Source: Parasynechococcus marenigrum WH 8102 (GTDB taxonomy: Bacteria > Cyanobacteriota > Cyanobacteriia > PCC-6307 > Cyanobiaceae). From it: DNA of 32,000 nt. The stretch covers positions 1,320,001 through 1,352,000 of the forward strand of contig NC_005070.1 in assembly GCF_000195975.1 (NCBI RefSeq), read 5' to 3'. Shown here piece after piece: positions 3,798 to 28,785 of this stretch (the stretch's first letter is position 1; each line of letters opens with the position of its first letter). The notes below the pieces were generated by a model that did no database searches, was not told where the DNA came from, and saw only the letters and a program-made list of their open reading frames with translations. The position numbers and the translations under genes were made by a program.

Positions 3798-3799
3798 AA

Positions 3800-5368: not shown

Positions 5369-5371
5369 GGC

Positions 5372-6466: not shown

Positions 6467-6470
6467 TGCC

Positions 6471-6632: not shown

Positions 6633-6682
6633 CAACGCAGGTTTCCGAGGCTGATCGCGCTGCATCGGCTGGACCCGAAAGG

Positions 6683-7198: not shown

Positions 7199-7626
7199 CG
7201 ATCAGCGTCGCCCTGGCCATGCTCCATCGGGATGGACGCTGGCTGTTGCAGCTGCGCGATGACATCGACTCAATCATTTATCCGGGCCACTGGGGTCTGT
7301 TCGGTGGCCATGTCGAGCCAGGAGAGTCTCCGGCTGACGCTGTTCAGCGCGAACTGGAGGAGGAAATCAGCTGGGTCCCCTCAGCTCCACTGCAGCTCTG
7401 GTTCAGCGATGCCAGTGGCACCCGCATCGCCCATGTGTTCCGCGGTCCGCTGACGGTGCCCCTGGAACAGCTGAAGCTCAGGGAAGGGCAGGACCTCAAA
7501 CTCGCCAGCCTGGAGGAGCTCTGCAGCGAGACGATCTGGAGTGATCACTGCCAGGAGCAACGTCCGATCGCCCCAGGCTTATCCATTGTCATGCGCCGTC
7601 TGCTGGCGGAGATGGATGACGCCTGA
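7195..7626 (+). CDS. NUDIX hydrolase
   Basis: Nudix box GGHVEPGESPADAVQRELEEEISW (Gx5Ex7REUxEExGU-like). Confidence 0.8.
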   Translation: MTISVALAMLHRDGRWLLQLRDDIDSIIYPGHWGLFGGHVEPGESPADAVQRELEEEISWVPSAPLQLWFSDASGTRIAHVFRGPLTVPLEQLKLREGQDLKLASLEELCSETIWSDHCQEQRPIAPGLSIVMRRLLAEMDDA

Positions 7627-14516: not shown

Positions 14517-15128
14517 TCAGACGTCGTCTGAAGCAACAGATCCCAACAGAGCCAGAACCTGGTCAAGCCCCTTGGACTGATCGCGGATCACAACACTGGC
14601 GTTCTGTTTGAGGGGTTCGATGAAATGCCGTTCCCCAGGCAGCATCTCTCGAAACATCTGACGGATCACATAGCGGGGGGAACGATGGCGATCGCGGACG
14701 TCCCGCCGCAAACGACGCCACAGTCGCCGGGGCACGGACTCCTCCAGGTAAATCACCAAAAAGAAAGGGAAATCGCTCACCAGGTGCTGAGGTCCGTAGG
14801 CACCTTCCAGAAGGATCACGTCGTAGGGAGTTGTGATCGACCGACGCTGAACGCGGCGGGTGCGCATGTCGTACGTGCGCAAGGTCTGGGCCTGCCCCTG
14901 ACGTGCCGCTGAAAGATCAACGCGCAGGGCCTGATCATCGATGGCATCGGCGGTGTCGAAGCCGAACAGCGGATGGGGACTCCAATCCTGGCGGTAGTAG
15001 TCGTCGCAGGCGATCTGCAGAGGCTGACGACCGCGGGCCTGCAGGGCTTGCGAAAGGGACGCCGCAAAGGTGGTTTTGCCGGCCGCGGAAGGCCCACAGA
15101 TGCAAAGAACAGGCCATAGCGGGGTCAT
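14517..15128 (-). CDS. Uridine kinase / PRK-family P-loop kinase-like protein
   Basis: P-loop ICGPSAAGKTTFA, then CDDYY, FDTADAID and VILLEGAY blocks as in Udk-family kinases. Alternative start at 15170. Confidence 0.65.
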   Translation of the reverse strand: MTPLWPVLCICGPSAAGKTTFAASLSQALQARGRQPLQIACDDYYRQDWSPHPLFGFDTADAIDDQALRVDLSAARQGQAQTLRTYDMRTRRVQRRSITTPYDVILLEGAYGPQHLVSDFPFFLVIYLEESVPRRLWRRLRRDVRDRHRSPRYVIRQMFREMLPGERHFIEPLKQNASVVIRDQSKGLDQVLALLGSVASDDV

Positions 15129-15186
15129 GCTCTCGTACCAATACTTGCAAATACAGTAGGTAGGCCCCAAACCGCTTGCGTTGCAA

Positions 15187-15196
15187 TGGGTCTGAC
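15187..15196. repeat. Left copy of the 10-bp inverted repeat TGGGTCTGAC at the island edge
   Basis: Exact reverse complement of 24776-24785. Confidence 0.4.
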
Positions 15197-15296
15197 GGGG
15201 TGACAGGGTTGGCGTGTTCTACAAAACGAACGCGTAAAATTGGATAAAGCTGAGTTCAACAGACGCGACATAGAAGGTGCACGGCACACCGATGCA

Positions 15297-15437
15297 ATGC
15301 ACATTCGTATGCCTCGACGACTGGTGGTGTTCATCAAGACGCTGGCGTTGGTTGAAGGGTCTGATGCTTCCAAGATCGCCCGTCGCTTTCTGACCATCTC
15401 AGCCGTTCAGGAGGGTTATGACCCTGATGGCGTCTGA
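15297..15437 (+). CDS. Small ribbon-helix-helix (CopG/Arc-like) DNA-binding protein
   Basis: MHIRMPRRLVVFIKTLALVEGSDASKIARRFL fits a beta-strand/helix/helix RHH pattern. The track ORF begins at TTG 15240, but a TAAAAT -10-like hexamer at 15235-15240 favours the ATG at 15297. The 3' end overlaps the next gene by 20 nt. Confidence 0.5.
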   Translation: MHIRMPRRLVVFIKTLALVEGSDASKIARRFLTISAVQEGYDPDGV

Positions 15438-17838
15438 AACAAAAACTGTTCGGCGGCCACCTACTCCTGAACCGATGATCATTGTCGGTTGTCAGCGTGA
15501 GAAGACTCCGGAGGGTCGGCGCAAGCTGAACATTTCCCGCTCCAGCAGCATGGGAAATCCCTTTGTGCTGAAGGAGCACGGGGGTGATTGTGAGACTGCT
15601 GAAGAGGCCACCAACAAATACATCCAGTGGCTCTGGCCACGGCTGCGTGACACTAACTCCAAGGAATATGCCTGGTTTGAAAGCGCATCAGACCTGATGC
15701 ACTCGGGCCAGAAACTAATCCTGGGTTGTTGTGGTCATGATCATTGTCATGGTCTCTGGATCGCCCACCTCCTCAACACTGGTGATTGGCGTCGTTGGGA
15801 CACCCTGAATGTTCATGAGTGGTGCGACAACGTAACCAGACTGCTGGCCAAAAACTATGGAAAGTTCAAGGCTTTTGAGGAGGATGGATCGGCGTACACC
15901 GAATGGGAAGTTCTCCTAGGCCAGGTGGAGTTTCTTGATTGGGACGACAGGGCCCCAGGCAAGAAGCGACTGTATGCACTGTTATTTATCTTGCTACGTG
16001 CTCACGGTCCAGGTGGAGCACGTGAACTCATAACTGGCAACGCAGAAGCTCTCCTCAAAACCGTTGCGGTCATTAAAGAGATGGGTGAATTCCCCAAGAC
16101 TGAGCAACAGAAACAGCAGTCCGCGATGGACGAGCTGATTCAGGAGGGTTCCAGCAAAGCCGAAATCATGAGAACGGCGGCGCTCAATGGTGTCAGCAAC
16201 ACCTATTCCCTGGAGCGTTATGCCGAAGCGGCACAGGCTGAGAAGGAAACAGAGGAGGACATTCTTGAAGCCATCGACAAGCTCATGGATGCCGGCGAGG
16301 TGCCGGACATCAGGCTTGAGGATTACGTTCCAGCCAAATGGATTCCTGGCTTCAGGGTCCTGAGGGATGGCCTGAAGTTTCAGGATGACGTCTTGGTGGC
16401 GGTGATCGTCTGTTGCGTTGGAGCAATGCTCCCGCCGACGGCCCGCATCCAGGCCAAATCCATGGAGGAGAAGATCATCCTATGGATGTTCCTGATCGGC
16501 ACCAGTGGCGTCGCTAAATCAGTCTTGATCAAGCTGCTGTGTCTGACGCCGTTGAACTTCGGCGTCGTGCCGGCCGTGAAAGTAGTTAACGGCAAGGAGA
16601 ACGACGACTTCCGCAAGCAGAAGGCTGAGTACCACAAGGAAAAATCCAAGTGGGACAAGCTGAAACCAGAGGAGAAGGATGGAAAGGTTCCACCATCGCC
16701 GCCAGAGCCAACTCGGAAGAAGAACGTTATTTACACCTCGCCAACTACCCAGGGCATCAGAGCTGATCTTGCTGAGTTCGGTCCAATCATTCCAAGCCTG
16801 CTCGCCAAGGATGAGTTGTCGAGCTGGTTTAAGGAGATGGGCAGCACGGCACGACAGACGGACATGGAGTTCTATCTGTCGGCCTATGACGGCAGCTATT
16901 CCAATGAGGTTTTTGCTGACGCCCGTCTAAGCCGGGAGGTCACAGAAGCAGCACTATCAGTGTTGGGCGGAACCCAACCGAAGGTGTTCCTTCAGTATCT
17001 GGAAGCCGGTAATGCCAACGGGTTTAATGCCCGGCCATTGTTCTTCCAAGTCCCCCGGCTTGCCCGGACGCTGCTGGACAAACTAAACGCTGATCATGAT
17101 CTGACGCTCTACCTCGGTGATCTGTACGAGGCGGCGTTCAGATTGGGACCGATTGATCCCTTGCTGGCTTACTCAGAGGGGTTTTCCCATGGTGAGTGCC
17201 CGCCCGTTCCAGACATGGATCGGAAGCCGAAATTCTGGTTATCAGAATCGGCCACCGAGAAATTCGTAGAGGTGTTCAACCACCTGGAGGAGAAGTCGAT
17301 CTCTGCTGGTAGCGATGAGATCGAAGCATTGTGGGCTAAAGCGCCAGGACAGGTGCTGCGGGTTGCAGCGGCTATCCAGTTCATGCGGACCTACACCGGA
17401 ATGGAGCCGCAATCAGATGATTGGCAGCCCCCCGATGAATTGGTGCCACACGGCTTTTGGCGCAATCTTCGCCAACGGTTCAACTATGACGAGACCCAGG
17501 TAGAGGATCATGTCAGGAAGTTCTTCCCCCGCGTAAGCACCGAGACGATCATCTTGGCGACGAGATTAGTCATCGCCGGTAAAACCCAGGGCGTTGATCT
17601 GGTTGAACGTGGCAAGAACCCAATCCAGGAGATGTTGAGGGTGTTCCTGGCTTACACCAAAAAGCACACCCCAAAATCCTCCAGCAAGGGGGTCAAGCTC
17701 AGCACTATCAGAAAAAACGCCTGGAACGGTAAGGCCAGACCATCCGCTCCAGACATCAAACAGATGGCACAGCTGGCCAAGAGTCAGGGTCTGGTTGTTC
17801 TGGTTGAGGGCGGAACAGCGGTGAGGTCAGTCAGATGA
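15418..17838 (+). CDS. DUF4326-DUF3987 fusion protein (island replication helicase-like, YfjI/P4-type C-terminal region)
   Basis: Residues about 20-120 carry ..NISRSSSMGNPF..NKYIQWLW..LILGCCGHDHCHGLWIAHLL, the DUF4326 pattern. Residues about 330-720 carry the P-loop-like GTSGVAKS (nt 16498-16521) and a block YDGSYSNEVFADARLSREVTEAALSVLGGTQPKVF resembling DUF3987. Confidence 0.75.
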   Translation: MTLMASETKTVRRPPTPEPMIIVGCQREKTPEGRRKLNISRSSSMGNPFVLKEHGGDCETAEEATNKYIQWLWPRLRDTNSKEYAWFESASDLMHSGQKLILGCCGHDHCHGLWIAHLLNTGDWRRWDTLNVHEWCDNVTRLLAKNYGKFKAFEEDGSAYTEWEVLLGQVEFLDWDDRAPGKKRLYALLFILLRAHGPGGARELITGNAEALLKTVAVIKEMGEFPKTEQQKQQSAMDELIQEGSSKAEIMRTAALNGVSNTYSLERYAEAAQAEKETEEDILEAIDKLMDAGEVPDIRLEDYVPAKWIPGFRVLRDGLKFQDDVLVAVIVCCVGAMLPPTARIQAKSMEEKIILWMFLIGTSGVAKSVLIKLLCLTPLNFGVVPAVKVVNGKENDDFRKQKAEYHKEKSKWDKLKPEEKDGKVPPSPPEPTRKKNVIYTSPTTQGIRADLAEFGPIIPSLLAKDELSSWFKEMGSTARQTDMEFYLSAYDGSYSNEVFADARLSREVTEAALSVLGGTQPKVFLQYLEAGNANGFNARPLFFQVPRLARTLLDKLNADHDLTLYLGDLYEAAFRLGPIDPLLAYSEGFSHGECPPVPDMDRKPKFWLSESATEKFVEVFNHLEEKSISAGSDEIEALWAKAPGQVLRVAAAIQFMRTYTGMEPQSDDWQPPDELVPHGFWRNLRQRFNYDETQVEDHVRKFFPRVSTETIILATRLVIAGKTQGVDLVERGKNPIQEMLRVFLAYTKKHTPKSSSKGVKLSTIRKNAWNGKARPSAPDIKQMAQLAKSQGLVVLVEGGTAVRSVR

Positions 17839-17852
17839 CGTACCAACACGCA

Positions 17853-18120
17853 GTCCACTCCAGGTCCACTCCTTGTCCCCCTTCTTTTCCACCCCTACTT
17901 CTTAGTAGTAGTAGGGGTTTTGAAGACTGGGGGTGGATTGGAGCGGTGTCTGTTGGATCAGCAGGGATTGCCCCCTGGAACGTGAACAGCAGAACAACGG
18001 TGAGCCGGCCGCAGAATCTTTTACCCCTACGGGATGTCCACCTCTGCAACCCAAACCCGTTGCCCCAACTTGGATCCCTTGGTGGGAAACGACGGGGACA
18101 AGCGGTGGATTGGCGGTGGA
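17853..18120. repeat. Iteron-like field: seven copies of the core TCCAC/GTGGA, including two tandem pairs phased at 11 bp
   Basis: GTCCACTCC at 17853 and 17864. TCCACC at 17888 and 18037. GGTGGATTGG at 17932 and 18104. GCGGTGGA at 18102 and 18113. Confidence 0.45.
17892..17921 (+). terminator. Rho-independent terminator candidate after the helicase-like gene
   Basis: CCCCTACT (17892-17899) pairs with AGTAGGGG (17910-17917) and is followed by TTTT. Confidence 0.5.
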
Positions 18121-18172
18121 ACGTAAAAAATTCGTGTTCTGATCGCTGCGATTCACCGGAGGAAAAACTCTG

Positions 18173-18406
18173 ATGGGCCTTTCAAGGGAGCTTGAGGCAC
18201 TCAGACGCAGAGCAAACCGGGCAGCGTTAGCCACTCGGATGCCTGATATTGAGATTTTGGTCTATCACGAAGGTGATGAGATTCCCGAAGCAGCCTCTGA
18301 TTGGGCAATCAGGGTGATGATTGAAAAGAAGCGCGATTATTATGAACAAGGAGACCCTTCTCTCCATCCTGATGATGTCGCGGCCATTCAGGGAGAAGAC
18401 CCCTAG
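18173..18406 (+). CDS. Hypothetical protein (77 aa)
   Basis: ORF in the track, charged and helical, followed directly by a terminator hairpin. Confidence 0.5.
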   Translation: MGLSRELEALRRRANRAALATRMPDIEILVYHEGDEIPEAASDWAIRVMIEKKRDYYEQGDPSLHPDDVAAIQGEDP

Positions 18407-18430
18407 AAACCCCACTAGGGGTTTTCTTTT
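18407..18430 (+). terminator. Rho-independent terminator candidate
   Basis: AAACCCC (18407-18413), loop ACTA, GGGGTTT (18418-18424), then TCTTTT. Confidence 0.6.
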
Positions 18431-18473
18431 GGGCCTTTAATGTAGGTCTTGGCCAAATGGCCAGAACCGCCAT

Positions 18474-19034
18474 TCACGCGCCAGCCATCACACAGTCATT
18501 CTTCGCTGATTCAGACACGTCCAAATAATTGGACAGCATCGTCAGACTCGAATGGCCGCTGATTGATTGGATGTTGCGTAATGGGATCCCGTTCTGACTG
18601 GCAGCGGTCAAGAATGACCGTCGAAATGTATGGGTTGAGATTCCCTGCATCCCGATTTCACCAGCAGCCTTCCTCAACGCGTGATCGAAACCACGACGCG
18701 TCAGATGCTCGCCAGGATTCCTCCCTGGGAAGACCCAGTTATCTGGGCCGTTTAATGGAGCCACAACCTGCCGCCAGCTCGAAAGCTGATCGGCAAGATC
18801 TGGATGGATTGGAACGGTTCTTGTTCTCTTCTTCCCTTTGGTCGTTGGAGCGGCAAAGATAATTTCGGTCTTGCCGACGTACTGCCACTTGAGCTGTAGA
18901 CCTTCGGACACCCGAGCAGCGGTGCGTCTCAGCAAGGTGGCTAAGACACGATGATTTTCGGGCAGAACCGACAGCAACAGATCAAGCTCGGCAGTGGACA
19001 AGACCTCAGCTTTGCCGAAGCGATTGATCTTCAT
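18474..19034 (-). CDS. Tyrosine recombinase/integrase, catalytic domain only (186 aa)
   Basis: Catalytic residues are readable: R in TAARVSEGLQLKW, K in TTKGKKRTRTV, HxxR in STHTFRRS, and H..Y in SGHSSLTMLSNY. There is no N-terminal core-binding domain. Confidence 0.85.
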   Translation of the reverse strand: MKINRFGKAEVLSTAELDLLLSVLPENHRVLATLLRRTAARVSEGLQLKWQYVGKTEIIFAAPTTKGKKRTRTVPIHPDLADQLSSWRQVVAPLNGPDNWVFPGRNPGEHLTRRGFDHALRKAAGEIGMQGISTHTFRRSFLTAASQNGIPLRNIQSISGHSSLTMLSNYLDVSESAKNDCVMAGA

Positions 19035-19420
19035 AGATCTATTCAGTTACCGAGGTTCAGAGGCCAGGCAGAGACTGCCATGTCCTCAAATGAAAGGTAG
19101 AGGACTAGATGGCTACTTGAACAGCCATTACGTCAGATTCACGCACAGCATTATTTATCTAATTCGCAATCAAGATGATTCTTTTTGTCTTCAGCAATGC
19201 TGCTGTTTCGTGATGCTTGGTATCAGGATTACTGTTATCAGTAAGTCGAATAGCAGGGGGTGTGGTTGCAGTTTTTGCTTATACAATCGTAGAGCGGGGG
19301 ACTTACTTAATGACGATAGTAGAATGAGTAGCTAACCGTGTCAAGCAATTCTTTTGTAGAACAAATCCATGTGCATTTGATGTTGGAACGTATTACTATT
19401 GATGAAACACCACAATCCTT

Positions 19421-19651
19421 ATGGATAGTGATTGGGATCTAAGCATCGACGAATGGCGGTTGATGTCGCGGTGCACCAAGTGTGCACGCCAGCTTTATCC
19501 CTACAATCAACGCCAACAAGATTCCTGGGCAGAATCTGCATACAGGAAGTGCATCAACGGTCAATCCTCACCGGAGAACCTTAGAGACCGGCAGTCTCCA
19601 AGACTGTTGGAAATGCTTGCTAAGCGTCCACCCAAACTTCTTTACTACTGA
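19421..19651 (+). CDS. Hypothetical protein (76 aa)
   Basis: ORF in the track. Its stop shares one base with the next start (TGATG). Confidence 0.45.
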   Translation: MDSDWDLSIDEWRLMSRCTKCARQLYPYNQRQQDSWAESAYRKCINGQSSPENLRDRQSPRLLEMLAKRPPKLLYY

Positions 19652-20142
19652 TGCCTACTTTCGATCACACGGCTGATTTCGCCACCTGGTGGAGCCAGAC
19701 ATTCCCTGGAACGCAATGTCCACCACTGCCAAAGAAAAAGGGTGACTTGGGTCTGACTGCAGAGATTGCTTTGCAGTCTGACAATCCTGCACTTTTTCAG
19801 AACCTCTTCTCCAATGGGGGGCTGGGGTCAGGTTCTATGCCTGCCGATACTGTTGCCCGTAGGAATAGCGGACAACTCCTACCGCAGGACATCCCTCATC
19901 TCCGTGCTGCCGGTCTGGAGTGGGAAGCTCAGCAGGTGCAGCAACTGGACCAACGTCAGCAGGATCAGCGGGCTGCTGATGACCTCCTTGCGCTCCAGAA
20001 GCGGAATCGTCAGAACGATCTGGCTGTGCAGGCTCGTGCCTCTGAAACGAGTCACGATCGGTGGGCGCGGATGCTGAGCAAACCACCATCACCACAAGCG
20101 ATTGCAGCAGCCAGGTCCGCCTGGGGCATCACAGGTGAATGA
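19651..20142 (+). CDS. Hypothetical protein (163 aa) with Gln-rich coiled-coil-like C-terminal half
   Basis: ORF in the track. Overlapping stop/start codons at both ends (ATGA with the next gene). Confidence 0.5.
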   Translation: MPTFDHTADFATWWSQTFPGTQCPPLPKKKGDLGLTAEIALQSDNPALFQNLFSNGGLGSGSMPADTVARRNSGQLLPQDIPHLRAAGLEWEAQQVQQLDQRQQDQRAADDLLALQKRNRQNDLAVQARASETSHDRWARMLSKPPSPQAIAAARSAWGITGE

Positions 20143-20570
20143 CGTTTGCGATGGGCAAGAGACGTCGTGAAGACCAGGAACTGCCCCCCGTAGTCAAAAA
20201 GGCGTTAGTCCTTCGAGCATCGGGGGCTAGTTGGGTTGATTGTGCTGCTGCTGTTGGAACGTCAGCCACCAACCTCCGTGAATGGAGAAAGCATCCAGAT
20301 GCAGATGGATTCCTTCAGGAGGCCATCAAATCCAATCTGGAACAAGCTCATACTCTGCTGGCGGATGCTGCACCACGATTGGCGATGCGGCTCGTTGAAC
20401 TGGGTTTAGATCCCAAGGTGAAGGCTTACGCCCAGATCAGTGCCATCAGCGAAGCGTTCAAGGTGCTGCAACAGGGTGTGATCGACAAAGAGAACCAAGA
20501 TCAGATCCGTACCATCAAAGAAACACTCGAGCAGTTGGAGGGTGGAACGCCCAACGTGATCGATGTGTGA
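20139..20570 (+). CDS. Putative HTH DNA-binding protein (regulator, or terminase-small-subunit-like N-terminus)
   Basis: ..ALVLRASGASWVDCAAAVGTSATNLREWRKH.. reads as a helix-turn-helix, followed by a helical tail. A diverged copy of its 3' end occurs 383 nt downstream. Confidence 0.5.
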   Translation: MTFAMGKRRREDQELPPVVKKALVLRASGASWVDCAAAVGTSATNLREWRKHPDADGFLQEAIKSNLEQAHTLLADAAPRLAMRLVELGLDPKVKAYAQISAISEAFKVLQQGVIDKENQDQIRTIKETLEQLEGGTPNVIDV

Positions 20571-20657
20571 CAAAGCACACAGTTTGTGTTGTTGAGTTCC
20601 GCACATTGATCGGGTCTGACGCACTAATCACCGGAGAACTCGTCAAAATCTCAAAAC

Positions 20658-20840
20658 TTGGTCCTATGTATTTTGAACCGGCATCTTGAAGAACAGATCG
20701 AGATCTATCGATCGATGCTCTATCGAGAGGAATTTCTACCTCCAGATCCTCATGCTTGTGAGCATTGTGGGCCTATTTTACGTAAAATAGAAATACTGCA
20801 GAAGGAACTTGCAAATTACGAAAACCAAGCCGCTGCCTGA
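20658..20840 (+). CDS. Doubtful small ORF (60 aa from TTG; 41 aa from the first ATG)
   Basis: ORF in the track in a low-GC spacer. It contains the 10-bp palindrome ATCGATCGAT at 20707-20716. No family recognised. Confidence 0.2.
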   Translation: MVLCILNRHLEEQIEIYRSMLYREEFLPPDPHACEHCGPILRKIEILQKELANYENQAAA

Positions 20841-20856
20841 TTTTTCGTGTAAAGGT

Positions 20857-20953
20857 TGGGCGTGGTCGACAAGTAACACCAGGATCAGATCCATGCCATC
20901 AGATCAACCCTGGAACAAATCGAGGGTGGAACGCCCAACGTGATTGATGTCTG
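20857..20953 (+). pseudogene. Fossil 3' end of a homolog of gene 20139-20570
   Basis: Ungapped hand alignment to 20474-20570 gives 77/97 identities, with 31/33 in the last 33 nt. It translates GVVDK*HQDQIHAIRSTLEQIEGGTPNVIDV* against GVIDKENQDQIRTIKETLEQLEGGTPNVIDV*. There is an in-frame TAA and no upstream gene body. Confidence 0.7.
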
Positions 20954-21003
20954 AACGTCGCCCTATTTCACTTGATGAGGCTAAATATCGCGATCTTTGT
21001 ATT

Positions 21004-21585
21004 TTAGGAGAAATCGGTAGTTTTTCCTCTTTCACTAACTCCCGGGCCATAGGCTTTTTCAAGAATTTCGCCTACTTTCTGCTTGGCCGAATCAGGATCA
21101 AGTCCAAATAGTTCACGTTTAGGCGAAAGGCGATACCTTTTGAGTTTATGGTGTACAAGGTCTTCTGCTCCCTTCATATCTAACATTGGCCAGACATCGA
21201 TAATTTCAATAGAGTCCGGTGGACCAATATTGCCAGCTATTTCATCAATTCTTCTGTCAGGGTCGTCAGAATAACCAATTTTGACGCAGTCATTAAAGCC
21301 TTTTCTCTCGAGAGTCTCTTCCCAGATACTTTTTAGGTATGGAGCCCAGGCTATGTACACAAATCCCCTTTTAGAGTCTATTGCTTTTCTCCTAGCCTCC
21401 TCTGGTGAATTTGCCGAATCCCCATAGTAGGACTGTGCAGTTGCCGCAAAATTTATGAACTTAAATAACTTTACTATGGAGGCATATGTTTCGAGATAGT
21501 ATAGATAGTAGGGACCCTTTTTTGGACCCTCACCAGTCCAATCAATGTAATTAGCCATTCCATTAATCAATAATTTTTTTTCCAA
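21004..21585 (-). CDS. T5orf172 / GIY-YIG-superfamily-like domain protein
   Basis: C-terminal half GFVYIAWAP..VKIGYSDDPDRRIDEI..AEDLVHHKLKRYRLSPKRELFGLD matches the T5orf172 (MUG113-like) pattern. The track start is TTG, and the first ATG is at 21558. Very low GC. Confidence 0.65.
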   Translation of the reverse strand: MEKKLLINGMANYIDWTGEGPKKGPYYLYYLETYASIVKLFKFINFAATAQSYYGDSANSPEEARRKAIDSKRGFVYIAWAPYLKSIWEETLERKGFNDCVKIGYSDDPDRRIDEIAGNIGPPDSIEIIDVWPMLDMKGAEDLVHHKLKRYRLSPKRELFGLDPDSAKQKVGEILEKAYGPGVSERGKTTDFS

Positions 21586-21610
21586 GCCTAGTAATTGATT
21601 TGAGTATTTT

Positions 21611-22597
21611 TTATTGAATCGTATCTCGGAGAAATCTAGCCACGACCTGAGCAGTTTTCACCGTCGTAAAATGCTCTGCTGGAGATTGTTTGACGTCATT
21701 CAGGTAATCAACAAAGAAATCCAAACCCATTCCATATTTTTTTTCTTCGAACACACCAAGTCCCTGATCTCTCCAAACCTGTGACAACTTAGTGCTTAGA
21801 TTTAATTCCATTGCGGCAGCCATCGCTGCGCCGACAAGAGGTTCGGCTCCTTTTTGTAGTAGATGGGTCATAGCTTCAGCTGCAAATATTTCGTCGCCGT
21901 CTCTAAAAGTAAATTTGAGGGAGGATATTTCTTCAACATAATCTGTTTTGAGTCCGTTGTCACTAAAATTAGTCCCTTCATACTTAATGTTTTTACTGAT
22001 ATCTTTTTTGTATTTCTCAGGTCCAAATTTACTGAAAGTACTTTTATTTAAATCAAGCCAATACTGAGCAGCTTCCCCAAGATCTCTAGCGCCTTTATTT
22101 TTCTTATTCTTTTTAAGGAGAAATGAGGTGATCGCGCTACCAATATCCCTGAGATGCTTGATCTTTTCGGGATACATGGAATCGTCGACTTTCTGCAATC
22201 CGATAATCGGAGTAGAAGGGTCCTTTGAATCAGCATCCCAATTCACATAGAATAAATTGCTTTTTTTAATCGTATCAAGCAGTGAAATGAATAAATAATC
22301 CTCGAATCTCTGTTGAAAATAGCCAACTCTATATTTTGACTGTTTTGCCCTCAGCTTTCGAACTCTATCTGGATTGTAGTCCCTCACTCTTTTTGAGCAC
22401 CCATCGTTGTTTTCTCGAAATTTCGCGTGTGCAAAATGTGGGGTTCTTATTTCTCCTCTTTTTAGAAATACGTTCGCCCTGCACTCGGAGCAGACAATTA
22501 GGTTCTTGCCGATTAACCACCCATCATCACCATCCATCTTGAGGAATTCCTCAACGCTCATTGTTTCGAGCTTTACTAGGGAAAACGCGTAATCCAT
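21611..22597 (-). CDS. Protein with CoiA-N-terminal-like zinc-ribbon/HFAH motif; remainder unrecognised (328 aa)
   Basis: ..LIVCSECRANVFLKRGEIRTPHFAHAKFRENNDGC.. resembles the CxxC..G....HFAH..C head of CoiA-family proteins. Its ATG shares one base with the recombinase stop (TGATG). Lowest GC in the window. Confidence 0.55.
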   Translation of the reverse strand: MDYAFSLVKLETMSVEEFLKMDGDDGWLIGKNLIVCSECRANVFLKRGEIRTPHFAHAKFRENNDGCSKRVRDYNPDRVRKLRAKQSKYRVGYFQQRFEDYLFISLLDTIKKSNLFYVNWDADSKDPSTPIIGLQKVDDSMYPEKIKHLRDIGSAITSFLLKKNKKNKGARDLGEAAQYWLDLNKSTFSKFGPEKYKKDISKNIKYEGTNFSDNGLKTDYVEEISSLKFTFRDGDEIFAAEAMTHLLQKGAEPLVGAAMAAAMELNLSTKLSQVWRDQGLGVFEEKKYGMGLDFFVDYLNDVKQSPAEHFTTVKTAQVVARFLRDTIQ

Positions 22598-24600
22598 CAG
22601 TTCATTCTCCTACGACGAGCGGGGCGACCGCGCTTGCGTTGTTCACGTGATGTCCAGGGACCAACCAAGTCAGTGCCATATGTCTCTGGTTGGTTGAGCA
22701 GACCGATATGCCCCTCAAATGTTGACGAAGGGTCATCGCCGCCTGCCGCTACTACTTTTTGCCAATAGTCATGCTCTTCTGGCGTCCTGATTCCAATCAA
22801 ATCAACTATGGGCCAACCCTTATCAATTTTCTCTTCCCACCCCTTTTGAAGTCTTTCTGGATCAATAGTATTGTCTTGAAACTGGTAGATGCTATGGACC
22901 TTTGCTTTAAGAGCATCTGACATCTTGTCAAACGATGAATGATTTTTCATCGTCTCCAGCAAGCAGTTGACCATAACCAGCCTTCCTTGATCGAAGACTG
23001 GTTCACCGATGTTGACAAAAGCCTTCATTTCATCGGCTGGAAATACCTCATCATCCAATTCAGCAATCGCATGCCCATCCTCAAGACAGAGCACAAGCTT
23101 TTGTTCTCTTAGCCAAGTGTTGAACGAAACCCTTTGTTCAAGGCTGTTGTCCTCACCGCTGATAAACCCATCGATCTGACGCTTTAGAGCTCTTTCCGCT
23201 TCACGTCCTGTTTGCTGGTGCGTCAACTTATTAACTTCAGCTCTTACGTCATCGACTGCAGCTTGAGCCACGTTCTGATCAGCAAGCAGTTTGTCCAACT
23301 GACGACTGAACTGAGGCAGTACACGCAATAGCTCTGGACTATCGCTGGTAGTGAGCTTCGTAATGTTGCTATTGACTTTGGCTACGTCCTCCTGGATAGA
23401 CCTGAGCGTTTTTTCTGCTTCGAGCAGTGATGACCTTGCGGATGTCAAAGCAGCTTCTTGGACCCCTGCATTGAAAAATTCTTCCCAGCGATATTGAGCA
23501 AGGTGATTCAGTAAGAAAGCTTCTAGGTACTTGTGGCCACGCTGGGTGCAGATGCTGAAGTCATTTCGGCAACGTAGAAATTTTTGACCATTACCGGCGT
23601 TCTTCACCACCATTGGTGAGCCGCAATGACGACAATAAATCGACCCAGCGAAAAGGTTCTGCTGCGTTGGACTGTTGTTGCTGGGACGGGACTGACTACG
23701 TGATGACAGCCCCATCTGAGCTGCATCCCATTCCTCTTGTGTGACGACTGGTGGATAGCAAACAACCTTCTCATCAGATGGTTTGTTGTCTTTCCAGAAG
23801 ACCTTGTAGCCGAGTGCTGCTTCATTACGCAGAACACCCGAAACAGAATTTGGTGTCCACCTCCTGCGGCCATCGCTAACGGCCTTGATTCCTTGGCTGT
23901 CGAGATGGTTTGCAATACGTGTGATGCCCAGCTTTGGCGCAAGACTAAAAATGGTTTTGACATGAGTAGCCCAGTCGTTCAGGACGTACTCGCCATCTTT
24001 CACATCTAGCCAAAACGGATAGTCAGCTCGACCCCTCTTAGTTCGAGCTTTTGGCTTGTGAGTGCCCTGCTTATGTAAGTCACGTTCCTTGCGTCGAGCA
24101 GCAAGCGAACGGTCCTGGCGTTCCAACCATTCGCCTCTAGCACGTTGGATCGCACCAAGAACTACGTAGGCGTCACCGCTGTCTTGCTCAAAACAAGACA
24201 GCACCTTGCCGCCTAGTTCACAGAACGCGATAGCACCACCTGCATCCCATAGACGCAGAAGAGTCTTCAGAACGGCTTCTATGGGCTCTCGACTGAACCT
24301 AGATACCTTCTCCACCACCAGACACGTTCCACGCGGCAGAACGCCTTTCTCAAGCTCTGAGATGAACCATTCGAACCGGCCGGCTTTGGCGCCGCTAACC
24401 GTGACTCTGATTTCTCGATCCAGCGAGTAGTCCGGATGCTCAGACAGCCATGACTCAATGGCACGTTGCTGGCGCTCCTCACCACTGCGATCTTCACCGG
24501 ATTGCTTGCCGGTACTGACACGCGAATATGAGATGGCCACTTTGTGACCAGCCACATCAGCCTTGGTGCTGGCTTTGGTTTTGCTCTTTTGAGCAACCAT
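22597..24600 (-). CDS. Large serine recombinase (resolvase catalytic domain + recombinase domain + zinc ribbon + coiled coil + C-terminal extension)
   Basis: Catalytic motif VAISYSRVSTGKQ and VVEKVSRFSRE. Recombinase domain ..ITRIANHLDSQGIKAV..WTPNSVSGVLRNEAALG. Zinc ribbon CRHCGSPM..LRCRNDFSIC. 667 aa. Confidence 0.9.
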   Translation of the reverse strand: MVAQKSKTKASTKADVAGHKVAISYSRVSTGKQSGEDRSGEERQQRAIESWLSEHPDYSLDREIRVTVSGAKAGRFEWFISELEKGVLPRGTCLVVEKVSRFSREPIEAVLKTLLRLWDAGGAIAFCELGGKVLSCFEQDSGDAYVVLGAIQRARGEWLERQDRSLAARRKERDLHKQGTHKPKARTKRGRADYPFWLDVKDGEYVLNDWATHVKTIFSLAPKLGITRIANHLDSQGIKAVSDGRRRWTPNSVSGVLRNEAALGYKVFWKDNKPSDEKVVCYPPVVTQEEWDAAQMGLSSRSQSRPSNNSPTQQNLFAGSIYCRHCGSPMVVKNAGNGQKFLRCRNDFSICTQRGHKYLEAFLLNHLAQYRWEEFFNAGVQEAALTSARSSLLEAEKTLRSIQEDVAKVNSNITKLTTSDSPELLRVLPQFSRQLDKLLADQNVAQAAVDDVRAEVNKLTHQQTGREAERALKRQIDGFISGEDNSLEQRVSFNTWLREQKLVLCLEDGHAIAELDDEVFPADEMKAFVNIGEPVFDQGRLVMVNCLLETMKNHSSFDKMSDALKAKVHSIYQFQDNTIDPERLQKGWEEKIDKGWPIVDLIGIRTPEEHDYWQKVVAAGGDDPSSTFEGHIGLLNQPETYGTDLVGPWTSREQRKRGRPARRRRMN

Positions 24601-24608
24601 TGGAAACG

Positions 24609-24657
24609 CTTAGACCTGCTGCGCTGCAATGACTCTAGCTACCTATGCAAGTCTAAG
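24609..24657. promoter_or_regulatory. 49-bp imperfect palindrome 9 nt upstream of the recombinase ATG (att-like site or operator)
   Basis: Arms CTTAGACCTGC (24609-24619) and GCAAGTCTAAG (24647-24657) match at 10 of 11 positions as an inverted repeat, with a 27-bp spacer. Confidence 0.45.
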
Positions 24658-24775
24658 TACGTGACCATGCCCCCATGCTGGCAAGGCCAGACAAGAGCAC
24701 ATTCAGCGATTGGTAGCTGCTGATACAGAAATGCCCTATGATCAACTTACGTTGAGCTTCTTCAATGAAGCTGCA

Positions 24776-24785
24776 GTCAGACCCA
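24776..24785. repeat. Right copy of the 10-bp inverted repeat (GTCAGACCCA) at the island edge
   Basis: Exact reverse complement of 15187-15196. Coincides with the return to host-like GC. Confidence 0.4.
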
Positions 24786-24825
24786 CGCCAGGCAACGGGG
24801 GCATGGGCGCTGAAGAGGTGATGTC

Positions 24826-25071
24826 ATGAACACACTTCAACTGATCAAAGCCCGCACCACCCGCACCCGGGCCATGCAACGGGCGCGCCTGCAGATGGCC
24901 AAGGCCTTCGGCAGTGCTGACCACATCGATGCCACCCACACACCGGTGGGAGTTGGCCAGAAGCCACAACTGCGTTATCGCGGCGTGGCGTATGACCCGA
25001 TCCACCAGGATCAGGAGGCCACCGGCGGTCGCGAACTTCGCTATCGCGGCGTGAGCTATGGGGTGTATTGA
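24826..25071 (+). CDS. DUF4278 domain protein
   Basis: Repeated LRYRGVAY / LRYRGVSY motifs typical of the cyanobacterial DUF4278 family. Confidence 0.7.
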   Translation: MNTLQLIKARTTRTRAMQRARLQMAKAFGSADHIDATHTPVGVGQKPQLRYRGVAYDPIHQDQEATGGRELRYRGVSYGVY

Positions 25072-27925: not shown

Positions 27926-28155
27926 TCGCGTTCAGAGTCAGCGTGTCGGTTCAAGTTCCAAAGCGATGCTCATATCAACCTGTTCCGCGAAATCCTCGAG
28001 CTCGGCATTCAACTCAATCAACAACACGGCTAAAGCCGAAGCAAACTCGATGCAGAAGTCGTCTGCCACAGCGTCTCAGAACGGGACCCACTAGTTCTAG
28101 AGACAGGATTGGCGCTGCCGTGGCTGTCCTCAACTGATGTTCACAAACGCTGAAT

Positions 28156-28320
28156 TCAGGCCACCAAGCGTGCGCTGAACTGATCGAAATCAAGATTCAA
28201 CTGACGCATCCGATCACGAATTCCCAGGCAATCTCGGCATGAACATGGCTTTTGGCCGGAATCAACACGATGCAGGAGAAGTGGAAGGATTTGATCTTCG
28301 TCTTCGTAGAGAAGAGACAT
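28156..28320 (-). CDS. Hypothetical small protein (54 aa from M21 of the track ORF)
   Basis: MSLLYEDEDQILPLLLHRVDSGQKPCSCRDCLGIRDRMRQLNLDF... No family recognised. Confidence 0.35.
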   Translation of the reverse strand: MSLLYEDEDQILPLLLHRVDSGQKPCSCRDCLGIRDRMRQLNLDFDQFSARLVA

Positions 28321-28422
28321 GTTTTCTCCGACAGAGAATAAAGTTGCAAAGATTTTTACCAGAACCAGCTTCAACGACAACTACAAATCGTTTTCAATGG
28401 TGTTATCAACACACTGGAATCG

Positions 28423-28662
28423 TCAGGATTCAACAACAACACGTGCATTCACCAGCAATCCTGCGGAGCGTGCATCCTCAAGCAGCGTGCTCAGGCAATC
28501 CATCCCGAAACAGGCTTCACCAGACAGGAGCGTGGTCCACTCCTCCTCCGGGAAGTGGGTTTGCAGCCATAACGCGCCATGGACACTGGCAACGATCAGA
28601 CGGACAAATCCTGGGCGATCAACGTGCTGAACAAGGAGATCCAAGGCCGTCTGCTGACTCAA
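28423..28662 (-). CDS. Hypothetical protein (79 aa)
   Basis: ORF in the track with plausible composition. Confidence 0.45.
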   Translation of the reverse strand: MSQQTALDLLVQHVDRPGFVRLIVASVHGALWLQTHFPEEEWTTLLSGEACFGMDCLSTLLEDARSAGLLVNARVVVES

Positions 28663-28785
28663 CTGTCTCCATTACGCCGGACAACGGAAAAACCAATTGT
28701 TCGTCCTGATACGAAATCAGCAAGAAGTCTCCTCGTGGCCGGAATTTTTATTGGTTAGGTTAATTCTGTTACGGGTTTGAACACC

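What the first reader, a model, noticed from the sequence alone, without database searches (positions are those of the whole stretch)
15187..24785. Composite mobile island of about 9.6 kb, without a tRNA target, carrying two recombinase families and three compositional tiers
The island sits in the divergent intergenic region between the udk-like kinase gene and the DUF4278 gene.
- GC by hand counts of 60-nt lines: about 52% at 16501, 35% at 19141, 38% at 21601, 27% at 22261 and about 50% at 23401, against 73% at 10441 for the host.
- Content: an RHH regulator, a DUF4326-DUF3987 helicase-like protein, a short tyrosine recombinase, an HTH protein, a gene-fragment fossil, and a large serine recombinase with two cargo genes.
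- I found no tRNA or tmRNA at either end.
- The mix of integrase, replication protein, small regulator and a possible TerS-like HTH is the gene logic of phage satellites/PICIs and of the tycheposon-type elements described in marine picocyanobacteria. Here it is combined with a second, serine-recombinase module.
Basis: partly seen in the sequence, partly recalled or inferred. Interest (0 to 1): 0.7.

Follow-up and report, generated by a model that had tools for sequence, protein, structure and literature searches.

The report
Serine-integrase island that inserts both ways
The low-GC block is a real 9.5-kb mobile element in the marine cyanobacterium Synechococcus WH8102, and because its serine integrase cuts at a self-complementary "AT", the same strain carries it in both orientations at the same site.

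Summary
The window is the Synechococcus WH8102 reference genome (SYNW1344-SYNW1351).

- **Boundaries.** Comparison with an empty site in strain WH8103 and in one ocean metagenome contig gives exact junctions. The insert lies between AT cores at 15127-28 and 24667-68, which is 9,538 bp. It sits on the start codon of the nucleoside-kinase gene. No tRNA is involved.
- **Attachment sites.** The element ends are two 21-nt arms that mirror each other about the AT. This is the layout of a large-serine-recombinase (LSR) attP. The LSR gene starts 67 bp from the core and faces inward.
- **Inversion.** All 23 other long assemblies read that encode this exact LSR carry the element inverted exactly at the AT. 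Their flanks, where compared, differ from the reference by 1 SNP and 1 indel. The element differs by one homopolymer base.
- **Intact attP.** Two environmental contigs with a 90%-identical LSR show the unrecombined attP.
- **Short tyrosine recombinase.** It is not a second integrase module. It belongs to a conserved four-gene core, with a TerS-like HTH protein. A 9.45-kb relative shares this core but uses a 409-aa tyrosine integrase at tRNA-Ala.

The element is therefore tycheposon-like with a swapped-in LSR integrase and no insertion polarity. Satellite behaviour is unproven.

The parts
14517..15128 (-). Host nucleoside/uridine-kinase-like gene (SYNW1344). The first two bases of its ATG are the crossover dinucleotide.
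   Evidence: PRK family E 2.7e-16. NCBIfam uridine kinase E 4e-24, below cut-off. Exact protein = CAE07859. Start codon is CAT on the + strand at 15126-15128.
15106..15149 (.). attL: host B arm (to 15126), core AT (15127-15128), element P' arm GCTCTCGTACCAATACTTGCA (15129-15149).
   Evidence: Junction defined against the empty sites L004 and L005, and against the inverted copies L001 and L003.
15240..15437 (+). Small RHH-like regulator, 65 aa (called as 46 aa from 15297 in other assemblies). It is the first gene inside the P' end.
   Evidence: Arc-like repressor PHROG E 0.006. 36% identical to a 66-aa protein in the same position in L026.
15418..17838 (+). DUF4326-DUF3987 protein (SYNW1345), a P-loop helicase-like putative replication protein.
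   Evidence: DUF3987 E 4.5e-31 and DUF4326 E 3.6e-7. PHROG DNA helicase E 1.6e-10. About 24%-identical homologues on cyanobacterial plasmids. Relatives have a 290-335-aa protein of unknown family plus a VapE-like helicase at this position.
18173..18406 (+). Small ORF of 77 aa (55 aa as called elsewhere), unknown function. Relatives have a 56-70-aa ORF at this position.
   Evidence: ORF list. Synteny in L015 and L019. No family hit.
18474..19034 (-). Short tyrosine recombinase YR186 (SYNW1346). It has the catalytic domain only. It is a conserved core gene, probably not the integrase.
   Evidence: Phage_integrase E 5e-26. Aligns only to the C-terminal catalytic domain of XerD/XerA. Family members are natively 185-193 aa. 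R41, H135-x-x-R138, the GHS His and the Tyr in NYL are present, by inspection of the translation.
19082..19105 (.). Conserved inverted repeat GTCCTC-N12-GAGGAC, 48 nt upstream of the YR186 start. Candidate operator or recombinase site.
   Evidence: Arms invariant in 5 related loci while the spacer varies. Single match in the window, 0.02 expected.
19421..20142 (+). Core genes p76 (19421-19651) and p163 (19651-20142), function unknown.
   Evidence: Conserved with YR186 and HTH143 in L015, L019 and L023: 44-48% and 31-38% identity. No family hits.
20139..20570 (+). HTH143 (SYNW1348): phBC6A51-type HTH protein with a terminase-small-subunit-like fold.
   Evidence: PHROG TerS E 0.003. UniRef name 'Homeodomain phBC6A51-type'. 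AlphaFold model pLDDT 70. Best Foldseek hits are 2ao9 (E 0.045), Sf6 TerS and E217 TerS, none at E<=0.001.
20858..20954 (+). Fossil 3' end of another HTH143 allele: GVVDK*HQDQIHAIRSTLEQIEGGTPNVIDV*.
   Evidence: 79% identical to 20474-20570. My translation matches the AIRSTLEQIEGG lineage of the family, such as P0263.
21004..22597 (-). Cargo gene: CoiA_N zinc-finger plus T5orf172/MUG113 (GIY-YIG-like) protein. It is 530 aa when intact and is frameshifted here (SYNW1349 and SYNW1350).
   Evidence: Pfam. Called as one 530-aa protein in L001, L003 and L006. A single extra T at 21655-21658. Weak PADLOC PDC-S57 hit E 7.6e-9.
22597..24600 (-). Large serine recombinase (SYNW1351), inward-facing. Its start codon is 67 bp from the att core.
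   Evidence: Recombinase, Resolvase and Zn_ribbon_recom domains. PHROG integrase E 6.5e-45. The YSRVST serine and 80 invariant columns hold among 14 homologues.
24646..24689 (.). attR: element P arm TGCAAGTCTAAGTACGTGACC (24646-24666), core AT (24667-24668), host B' arm.
   Evidence: The reconstructed attP has 17/24 mirrored positions about the AT. Shuffles of other regions of comparable length gave a mean of about 12 and a maximum of 16.
24747..25071 (+). Host flank: Glutamine-II riboswitch (24747-24807) and its DUF4278 'downstream peptide' ORF (24826-25071).
   Evidence: RF01704 at 53 bits against a gathering score of 33. Also present in the empty site of WH8103. DUF4278 hit is weak, E 4.7e-4.

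Best explanation
This is one integrative element of 9,538 bp. Its integrase is the large serine recombinase SYNW1351.

**Integration.** The circular form carries an attP made of two 21-nt arms mirrored about an AT dinucleotide: TGCAAGTCTAAGTACGTGACC|AT|GCTCTCGTACCAATACTTGCA. The LSR recombines attP with a chromosomal attB (GCGGGGTC|AT|GCCCCCATGC). The AT of attB is the first two bases of the nucleoside-kinase start codon. The coding sequence survives, but the kinase's upstream region is replaced.

**Loss of polarity.** The 2-nt overhang AT is self-complementary, so the sites have no polarity. Parallel and antiparallel synapses both ligate. The element can therefore integrate either way. Once integrated, attL x attR recombination can invert it as well as excise it.

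**Rest of the element.** It is a tycheposon-like backbone. It has a small regulator and a DUF3987 helicase-type replication protein at the end opposite the integrase. It has a conserved core of short tyrosine recombinase, p76, p163 and TerS-like HTH143. Next to the LSR it carries a nuclease-like cargo gene.

**Shown.** The junctions, the empty site, both orientations in one strain background, intact attP in relatives, and the shared core in a relative that uses a tyrosine integrase at tRNA-Ala.

**Inferred.**
- The LSR is the catalyst and AT is the cut site.
- Replication follows excision.
- The short tyrosine recombinase has an accessory role. Resolution of replicon multimers is my best guess, at low confidence.
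- HTH143 has a packaging or regulatory role.
- The cargo has a defence role.
For: 1. **Empty site.** WH8103 (LN847356) and an Ocean Sampling Day contig join window 15130 directly to 24666. The shared sequence is CATGC.
2. **Exact inversion.** In L001, L003 and L006 the interior 15129-24666 is inverted.
   - The junctions are B|AT|rc(P) and rc(P')|AT|B'. This is a reciprocal exchange inside the 4-bp palindrome CATG.
   - Only the central AT fits a 2-nt stagger that works in both orientations.
3. **Same strain.**
   - The flanks differ by 1 SNP in 10.6 kb and 1 indel in 7.3 kb.
   - The element differs by one T in a homopolymer.
   - Accession order CAE07859 to CAE07866 confirms that the reference has the kinase next to the DUF3987 gene.
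4. **All other assemblies read are inverted.**
   - 23 of 23 other long contigs read that encode this exact LSR have it next to the kinase.
   - Part of these come from microcosms amended with WH8102 material.
5. **attP symmetry.** 17/24 positions mirror about the AT. The LSR start lies 67 bp from the core, both here and in L026.
6. **Intact attP in relatives.** In L024 and L026 (LSR about 90% identical) the P arm meets a second P-type arm at the same AT. RHH genes and a VapE-like helicase gene follow.
7. **Experimental precedent.** A118 integrase sites mutated to a symmetric core give both deletions and inversions, with hybrid attL*/attR* sites (PMC3556126).
8. **Core and swapped integrase.**
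   - YR186, p76, p163 and HTH143 are syntenic in L015, L019 and L023.
   - L023 is bounded by tRNA-Ala and an 87-nt partial copy, and has a 409-aa integrase at one end.
   - L025 links a 66%-identical LSR to an HTH143 gene that is 89% identical at the nucleotide level.
Against: - No recombination assay exists. The LSR's role and the AT cut site are inferred from sequence geometry.
- Orientation 1 is seen only in the reference genome. Two look-ups for orientation-1-specific ORFs found nothing on record.
- I could not inspect raw reads for mixed orientations, attP or attB in WH8102 cultures.
- No recombination directionality factor is identified.
- The intact attP in L024 and L026 shows only that the site is unrecombined. 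Those short contigs could be episomes, tandem copies, or elements integrated by another route.
- attB symmetry is not above chance: 11/24 about the true core.
- No copy of the element or its attP was found in IMG/VR.
Confidence: 0.8

Rival explanations
1. Composite of two independent mobile elements. A tyrosine-recombinase element (replication protein, short recombinase, HTH) would be nested in or abutting a separate LSR-plus-cargo element, each moving by its own recombinase.
For: - There are three GC tiers.
- A fossil of another HTH143 allele lies at the seam.
- The 90% clusters of YR186 and HTH143 have 150 and 157 members. Those of the LSR and the DUF3987 protein have 4 each.
- The YR186 core occurs without any LSR in L015, L019 and L023.
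Against: - The whole 9,538 bp is bounded by one pair of LSR-type sites. It is absent as a unit from the empty site and inverted as a unit.
- No direct repeats or tRNA fragment flank the left part.
- In L023 the short recombinase is internal, and a separate 409-aa integrase sits at the tRNA end.
- L025 shows the LSR-cargo-HTH143 linkage in a second lineage.
- The data fit past module exchange rather than two elements that are mobile today.
Confidence: 0.12
2. Phage satellite (PICI-like tycheposon). After induction by a helper cyanophage, the element excises and replicates. It then uses the TerS-like HTH143 to have its DNA packaged into helper capsids.
For: - The gene logic fits: integrase, small regulators, replication protein, TerS-like protein, about 9.5 kb, and no structural or lysis genes.
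- The HTH143 model best matches phBC6A51 protein 2ao9 and the Sf6 and E217 small terminases.
- A 41%-identical LSR sits on a circular 9.1-kb IMG/VR contig with an HK97-type capsid gene.
- Hackl et al. describe PICI-like tycheposons with terS or a capsid gene in viral fractions.
Against: - The TerS evidence is weak: PHROG E 0.003, Foldseek E 0.045, model pLDDT 70.
- IMG/VR holds no close relatives of YR186, the DUF3987 protein or HTH143, no P arm and no attP junction.
- The element has no DNA match in 50,697 phage records.
- This reading is compatible with the main explanation. It concerns only how the element spreads.
Confidence: 0.3
3. The orientation difference is not site-specific recombination. 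It would be a reference misassembly, or an inversion by homologous recombination between the imperfect inverted repeats at the ends.
For: - Only the 2003 reference shows orientation 1.
- The end arms are 23/29 identical as inverted repeats.
Against: - The reference junctions are the exact reciprocal recombinants, B|P' and P|B'. These sequences do not exist in orientation-2 DNA, so an assembler could not create them without reads.
- The exchange point is at the B/P boundary, where only CATG is shared. It is not inside the similar arms, which keep all their arm-specific bases.
- RecA-type recombination would not act on 4 bp.
Confidence: 0.03
4. Programmed invertible switch. Flipping is selected because it changes which element end, and so which outward transcription or 5' leader, abuts the kinase start codon. 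This would toggle kinase expression.
For: - The core lies exactly on the kinase ATG, and the whole upstream region is swapped between states.
- In orientation 2 an upstream in-frame ORF of 41 codons fuses to the kinase (P0110).
Against: - The consensus scan found no promoter-like site near either end. Overall, hits were not above the number expected from shuffled sequence.
- One state dominates in all later assemblies.
- A symmetric core is sufficient to explain flipping without any selected function.
Confidence: 0.08

Closest known systems
Tycheposons (Hackl et al., bioRxiv 10.1101/2020.12.28.424599; described in Prochlorococcus, with tycheposon-like insertions reported in Synechococcus, PMC8995045)
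   Same: - Small integrative element of marine picocyanobacteria.
- An inward-facing site-specific integrase sits at one end and a small replication module at the opposite end.
- Regulators and cargo or packaging-type genes are present.
- A minority of the 937 elements in that study carry a large serine recombinase instead of a tyrosine recombinase.
- The relative L023 has the canonical tRNA plus partial-tRNA boundaries.
   Different: - There is no tRNA target. The site is the start codon of a protein-coding gene.
- The integrase is an LSR with a symmetric core.
- An extra, internal, catalytic-domain-only tyrosine recombinase belongs to the conserved core.
- I could not test the hallmark gene profiles or the integrase phylogeny of that paper.
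Serine-integrase systems (phiC31, Bxb1, Listeria phage A118), and in particular A118 att sites mutated to a symmetric core (PMC3556126)
   Same: - Resolvase, Recombinase and zinc-ribbon domain order.
- Short attP with imperfect dyad symmetry, and a 2-bp crossover shared by attP and attB.
- The symmetric-core mutants give both orientations, with hybrid attL*/attR* sites. These are the junction types seen here.
   Different: - Here the symmetric core is the natural site rather than a mutant.
- The carrier is a 9.5-kb non-phage element.
- Characterised natural systems use asymmetric cores (TT, GT, GG).
- I found no report of a natural symmetric core in the papers searched. That search is not exhaustive.
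Phage-inducible chromosomal islands and other phage satellites
   Same: The combination of integrase, small regulators, replication protein and a TerS-like protein, a size near 10 kb, and no capsid or lysis genes.
   Different: - No helper phage is known.
- No copy was found in viral-fraction contigs.
- The TerS assignment is weak.
Anabaena fdxN element excised by the large serine recombinase XisF
   Same: A cyanobacterial chromosomal element bounded by LSR sites and touching a gene. XisF is the only NCBIfam model hit for the LSR.
   Different: - The hit is 40 bits against a cut-off of 375, so this LSR is not an XisF equivalent.
- From my own knowledge, XisF excision is developmental and needs XisH and XisI.
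- There is no replication module in that element.
Hin/Gin-type invertible DNA segments
   Same: A serine recombinase inverts a DNA segment between inverted sites.
   Different: From my own knowledge, those use small (about 190 aa) invertases with a C-terminal HTH, an enhancer and Fis, and asymmetric cores in inverted repeats. Here a 667-aa integrase-type enzyme acts on attL/attR hybrid sites, and inversion is a by-product of core symmetry.

Membership tests
Large serine recombinase (serine integrase) system | N-terminal resolvase catalytic domain with the nucleophilic serine, followed by recombinase and zinc-ribbon domains | tested here: met
   Resolvase E 4e-8, Recombinase E 1.6e-11 and Zn_ribbon_recom E 1e-6. 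S29 in YSRVST is invariant among 14 homologues.
Large serine recombinase (serine integrase) system | Short attP (about 50 bp) with imperfect dyad symmetry, and attB sharing only a few central bases with it | tested here: met
   Reconstructed attP has 17/24 mirrored positions about the AT. attB and attP share only CATGC.
Large serine recombinase (serine integrase) system | Asymmetric central dinucleotide that sets site polarity | tested here: not met
   The core is AT inside CATG. Both orientations are observed with exchange exactly there. This is the point of difference, not a reason to exclude the enzyme family.
Large serine recombinase (serine integrase) system | Recombination directionality factor for attL x attR | not testable with these tools
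   No candidate can be recognised by sequence. Several small ORFs are unassigned.
Tycheposon (definition) | Site-specific integrase, in most cases of the tycheposon-specific tyrosine recombinase lineage | tested here: inconclusive
   An LSR integrase is present. LSRs occur in 27 of the 937 elements of that study. Phylogenetic placement of YR186 or of the L023 integrase in that lineage was not possible.
Tycheposon (definition) | Shared hallmark genes for mobility and replication | not testable with these tools
   The paper's gene profiles are not available here. Analogous functions are present: helicase-type DUF3987 protein, regulators, and a TerS-like protein.
Tycheposon (definition) | [quoted passage not shown] | tested here: met
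   The LSR starts 67 bp from attR and reads inward. The RHH and DUF3987 genes lie at the attL end.
Tycheposon (definition) | Cargo for local adaptation or phage interference | tested here: inconclusive
   A CoiA_N/T5orf172 nuclease-like gene with a weak PADLOC PDC-S57 hit. Its function is untested and it is frameshifted in the reference.
Tycheposon (as used for Synechococcus) | tRNA gene at one end and a partial tRNA copy at the other | tested here: not met
   The window has no tRNA. The target is the kinase start codon. The relative L023 does meet this feature.
Phage satellite / PICI | Packaging-hijack gene such as terS | tested here: inconclusive
   PHROG TerS E 0.003. Foldseek best hits are 2ao9, Sf6 TerS and E217 TerS, with E >= 0.045 on a model of pLDDT 70.
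Phage satellite / PICI | Found in virus particles or induced by a helper phage | tested here: not met
   IMG/VR holds no attP, no P arm, and no close relatives of three element proteins. Sensitivity is limited to close relatives, and induction is not testable here.
Xer/integrase-type tyrosine recombinase (for YR186) | Catalytic residues R-K-H-R-H/W-Y in the C-terminal domain | tested here: met
   Phage_integrase E 5e-26. By inspection of the translation, R41, the TTKGKK lysines, H135-T-F-R138, GHS and NYL are present.
Xer/integrase-type tyrosine recombinase (for YR186) | N-terminal core-binding (SAM-like) domain | tested here: not met
   At 186 aa it aligns only to XerD residues 128-281. All Xer models score far below cut-off. 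The family is natively 185-193 aa.

The most novel reading that the evidence does not exclude
A natural serine-integrase system has evolved, or at least tolerates, a self-complementary crossover dinucleotide. Its element therefore has no insertion polarity and flips in situ. The flip re-wires the 5' region of the host kinase gene whose start codon is the crossover point, giving a heritable two-state switch. In addition, the genetically tractable model strain WH8102 carries a currently active tycheposon-like element whose excision, replication and transfer can be studied directly.
Probability: 0.15. Interest if true: 0.75.

Novelty: new variant of a known kind. Interest (0 to 1): 0.6.

Why it matters
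- **Mobility of tycheposon-type elements.** These elements are thought to drive island plasticity in marine picocyanobacteria, but their mobility has been inferred mostly from comparative genomics. Here a member-like element in a long-used model strain shows a rearrangement between lineages of the same strain, with exact att sites in hand. Excision, flipping, replication and transfer become directly testable by PCR and genetics.
- **Serine-integrase biology.** As far as I could find, this is a natural example of the symmetric-core behaviour known from engineered A118 sites. It raises the question of why such cores are otherwise avoided.
- **Modular evolution.** The same four-gene core is driven either by an LSR at a gene start or by a tyrosine integrase at tRNA-Ala.
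- **Practical point.** The WH8102 reference differs from the other assemblies read here by a 9.5-kb inversion. A frameshift in the reference also hides a 530-aa gene.

Tried and rejected
**Searches that found nothing.**
- tRNA/tmRNA as the target: none in the window.
- Circular-junction search with the WH8102 attP 30-mer in IMG/VR: 0 hits.
- P' arm and P arm searches in the JGI metagenome collection: 0 hits. These are uninformative, because that collection also misses L024 and L026, which are JGI contigs containing the P arm.
- P arm in IMG/VR: 0 hits.
- Close relatives of YR186, the DUF3987 protein and HTH143 in IMG/VR: none.
- Megablast of the whole element against phage records: none.
- Look-ups of two ORFs that exist only in orientation 1: not on record.
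- Literature on SYNW1344-1351, and on WH8102 with inversion and serine recombinase: nothing. A separate search for the sample identifiers did find the source of the SAMN04917373 contigs.
- Literature on natural symmetric LSR cores: nothing found.
- DUF3987 plus cyanobacterial replication papers: none. I therefore make no claim from memory about plasmid Rep proteins.

**Searches with little yield.**
- LSR alignment against GTDB species representatives: only two distant relatives, at other sites.
- Promoter/terminator scan: the number of hits is not above the shuffled expectation.

**Ideas I dropped.**
- My guess by eye that the circular contig L027 also has an AT-centred attP. An ungapped symmetry scan did not support it.
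- Homologous recombination and misassembly as causes of the inversion (see rivals).

Full report
**Observation.**

The window has a clear compositional island.
- In 500-nt windows the host runs at about 59-65% GC. The block from about 15.2 to 24.7 kb falls to 38-56%.
- Exact figures are 59.9% for the left flank, 49.9% for the element and 58.0% for the right flank.
- Inside the element there are tiers of 53-54% (15129-20570), 40% (cargo, 21004-22597) and 50% (LSR gene). A 41% intergenic stretch lies at 19035-19420.
The 73% line at 10441 is a local peak, not the host level.
- Tetranucleotide distance to the host rises from 0.17-0.29 to 0.30-0.67 across the block.
- ARAGORN finds no tRNA or tmRNA in the window.

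The gene calls hold.
- A DUF4326-DUF3987 protein.
- A 186-aa tyrosine recombinase.
- A 667-aa large serine recombinase (LSR).
- T5orf172/MUG113 and CoiA_N cargo.
- An HTH protein with only a weak terminase-small-subunit hit.
- A weakly RHH-like small protein.
- A 97-nt fossil of the HTH gene's 3' end.

**Source and exact boundaries.**

Exact protein look-ups identify the window as the Synechococcus (Parasynechococcus marenigrum) WH8102 reference genome.
- The genes are SYNW1344 (kinase) to SYNW1351 (LSR), accessions CAE07859 to CAE07866.
- The accession order confirms that in the reference the kinase lies next to the DUF3987 gene.

Contigs carrying the flanking genes gave both an empty site and occupied sites.
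- In LN847356.1 (which I recognise as strain WH8103) and in an Ocean Sampling Day contig, window 15130 is joined directly to 24666.
- The empty site reads CCATAGCGGGGTC-AT-GCCCCCATGCTGG.
- The window junctions are GCGGGGTC-AT-GCTCTCGTACCAATACTTGCA on the left. The AT is at 15127-15128.
- On the right they are TGCAAGTCTAAGTACGTGACC-AT-GCCCCCATGC. The AT is at 24667-24668.

The element is therefore 9,538 bp between the two cores.
- They ran 119 bp too far out on the right, and those last 118 bp are host DNA.
- That host DNA includes the start of a Glutamine-II riboswitch (24747-24807, 53 bits). The riboswitch is also present in the empty site of WH8103.
- On the minus strand, the AT is the first two bases of the kinase start codon.

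**The key result: the same element in both orientations.**
- In L001, L003 and L006 the flanks are collinear with the window, but the interior 15129-24666 is inverted.
- The junctions there are B-arm|AT|reverse-complement of the P arm, and reverse-complement of the P' arm|AT|B'-arm.
- This is an exact reciprocal exchange within the 4-bp palindrome CATG.
- Outside the element these contigs differ from the window by 1 SNP in 10.6 kb and 1 indel in 7.3 kb.
- Inside, they differ by a single T in a homopolymer (T4 versus T3 at 21655-21658). It is the same strain.
- All 23 long contigs read that encode this exact LSR have it next to the kinase.
- Part of them come from BioSample SAMN04917373. The paper that cites this BioSample amended seawater microcosms with lysate or exudate of laboratory-grown WH8102.
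- The reference orientation cannot be an assembly artefact. Its two junction sequences do not exist in the other arrangement.
- Homologous recombination is also excluded. The exchange point lies at the boundary between host and element arms, where only CATG is shared. Both element arms keep all their arm-specific bases.

**Why the LSR, and why AT.**
- The element ends are two 21-nt arms with the same outer motif (TGCAAGT) and similar inner parts. They are placed symmetrically about the AT.
- The reconstructed attP has 17/24 mirrored positions. Shuffles of other regions of comparable length averaged about 12, with a maximum of 16.
- The LSR gene faces inward with its start codon 67 bp from the core. 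The spacing is the same in the relative L026.
- The LSR has the Resolvase, Recombinase and zinc-ribbon domains. Its YSRVST serine is invariant among homologues.
- Serine integrases cut with a 2-nt stagger at the centre of the site. The central dinucleotide alone sets polarity.
- When the A118 core was mutated to a symmetric dinucleotide, parallel and antiparallel synapses both gave products. The results were deletions and also inversions with hybrid attL*/attR* sites (PMC3556126).
- Those are the junction types seen here. Of the three dinucleotides within CATG, only AT lets the same cut positions work in both orientations while preserving CATG at all four junctions.

**Intact attP in nature.**
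- Two JGI metagenome contigs from different samples (L024 and L026) encode an LSR about 90% identical.
- Upstream of it, the same P arm meets a second P-type arm at the same AT: TTGCAAGTGATCTTGTGTGACC-AT-GGTCACGTACTTAGACTTGCA.
- This is followed by an RHH gene reading away. In L026 a second small regulator follows, 36% identical to the window's. A protein of unknown family and a VapE-like helicase come next.
- This is the unrecombined attP. It confirms the arm/core model and fits an excised circle.
- Tandem copies, or integration by another route, cannot be excluded on such short contigs.

**What the rest of the element is.**

The 186-aa tyrosine recombinase is not truncated.
- Its family is natively 185-193 aa and is abundant in marine metagenomes.
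- It aligns only to the catalytic domain of Xer proteins.
- It keeps the catalytic residues, by inspection of the translation.

In relatives (L015, L019, L023) it sits in a conserved block.
- It lies divergently from homologues of p76, p163 and HTH143. Identities are 65-74%, 44-48%, 31-38% and 37-38% respectively.
- It also lies next to a small ORF and a replication module containing a VapE-like helicase.
- L023 is a complete 9.45-kb relative. It is bounded by tRNA-Ala(GGC) and an 87-nt partial copy, with a separate 409-aa tyrosine integrase at one end.
- So the short recombinase is a core accessory gene, and the terminal integrase is exchangeable.
- A Tara contig (L025) links a 66%-identical LSR and a different cargo to an HTH143 gene that is 89% identical at the nucleotide level.

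The fossil at 20858-20954 marks a past exchange.
- It translates to GVVDK*HQDQIHAIRSTLEQIEGGTPNVIDV*.
- This matches another lineage of HTH143.
- It is therefore a scar of module exchange at the HTH143 3' end. That also explains the GC tiers.

Other assignments are weaker.
- The HTH143 model (pLDDT 70) best matches the phBC6A51 protein 2ao9 and the Sf6 and E217 small terminases. No match reaches E 0.001.
- The DUF3987 protein has about 24%-identical homologues on cyanobacterial plasmids and matches a PHROG helicase family.
- The cargo is one 530-aa CoiA_N/T5orf172 protein in all other assemblies. It has a weak hit to a candidate defence family.

**Mechanism, with confidence.**

Well supported (about 0.8):
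- This is a single LSR-mobilised integrative element.
- It inserts at an attB overlapping the kinase start codon.
- It lacks polarity because the crossover dinucleotide is AT.
- The flip between WH8102 lineages arose in one of two ways. One is attL x attR recombination in an antiparallel synapse. The other is excision followed by re-integration the other way. The two routes give identical products and cannot be told apart here.

Inferred with lower confidence:
- Replication of the excised circle by the DUF3987 protein.
- Multimer resolution or another accessory role for the short tyrosine recombinase. It possibly acts at the conserved GTCCTC-N12-GAGGAC repeat at 19082-19105.
- A packaging or regulatory role for HTH143.
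- A defence role for the cargo.

The satellite hypothesis remains open, at about 0.3.
- IMG/VR holds no close relatives and no attP.
- The phage database has no DNA match to the element.
- However, a 41%-identical LSR sits on a circular 9.1-kb IMG/VR contig with an HK97-type capsid gene.

**Comparison with known systems.**

The element works like a tycheposon and like a serine-integrase element.
- Against the tycheposon definition, the gene organisation criterion is met.
- The integrase criterion is met only in the minority LSR form.
- The hallmark profiles could not be tested.
- The tRNA hallmark used for Synechococcus is not met here, although it is met by the relative L023.
- Against serine-integrase systems, every feature is met except the asymmetric core. 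That exception is the interesting difference.
- It is not an XisF equivalent: 40 bits against a cut-off of 375.
- It is not a Hin-type invertase system.

**Novelty and verdict.**
- The island's genes are already annotated in a 2003 genome, so the island itself is not new.
- The new points are the exact att sites, the symmetric AT core, the orientation polymorphism within one strain, the intact attP in relatives, and the shared core with a tRNA-Ala relative showing integrase swapping.
- I found nothing on these genes or on natural symmetric LSR cores in the searchable literature. That search is not exhaustive.
- I rate it a new variant of a known kind, with interest 0.6.

Noticed in passing
window 24747-24807 (+), with ORF 24826-25071: A Glutamine-II riboswitch (RF01704, 53 bits) lies directly upstream of the DUF4278 ORF. 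It is also present in the empty site of WH8103 (L004 9922-9982). The att core is 79 nt upstream of the aptamer.
   Followed up: yes
window 21655-21658: The reference has TTTT where the other assemblies compared (L001, L003, L006) have TTT. This splits a 530-aa CoiA_N/T5orf172 gene into SYNW1350 and SYNW1349. It is either a reference error or a lineage-specific frameshift.
   Followed up: yes
window 13451 and 29528: These are the only other differences between the reference and the later WH8102-type assemblies in 18 kb of flank: C/T at 13451, and one extra C at 29528.
   Followed up: partly
window 19082-19105: An inverted repeat, GTCCTC-N12-GAGGAC, lies 48 nt upstream of the short tyrosine recombinase gene. 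The arms are invariant in five related loci while the spacer varies. The same intergenic region holds two more conserved blocks (GGGGG..GGTTGC, GGGGACTTAC).
   Followed up: partly
L027 (IMGVR_UViG_3300005662_008283), 1-9229: A circular contig (110-bp terminal overlap, 64.5% GC) encodes an LSR 41% identical to SYNW1351 and an HK97-type major capsid protein (E 7e-14). It looks like a satellite-like circle in the wider LSR clade.
   Followed up: partly
L023 44-130 and 9497-9583; tRNA at 9536-9608: An 87-nt direct repeat (86% identical) formed by tRNA-Ala(GGC) and a partial copy bounds a 9.45-kb element. The element has a 409-aa integrase and the same YR186/p76/p163/HTH143 core.
   Followed up: yes
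L002, L012, L013, L014 contig ends (window about 21606-22220): Several independent assemblies break inside the AT-rich cargo gene, where a 60-nt line drops to 27% GC. This is probably a coverage drop rather than a structural variant.
   Followed up: no
P0110 (orientation-2 contigs); window 24544-24666 joined to 15128 downward: In the inverted state an ORF of 41 codons from the LSR-side end is in frame with the kinase. Some gene callers report a 244-aa fusion.
   Followed up: partly
L025 about 240-330: In a Tara contig with a 66%-identical LSR, which is split across two ORFs, the P-type arm GGTCCCGTGTTCAGGCTTGCG is preceded by CATT. The core there may be TT rather than AT. The alignment is by eye only.
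   Followed up: no
window 2250-3500, 6000-6500, 28000-28750: Further GC dips to 47-49% occur in the host flanks. The 28.0-28.8 kb stretch also carries a cluster of SNPs relative to WH8103.
   Followed up: no
window 20658-20840 (+): A 60-aa ORF with a CxxC-like HACEHCGP motif lies between the HTH143 gene and its fossil. It has no family hit.
   Followed up: no
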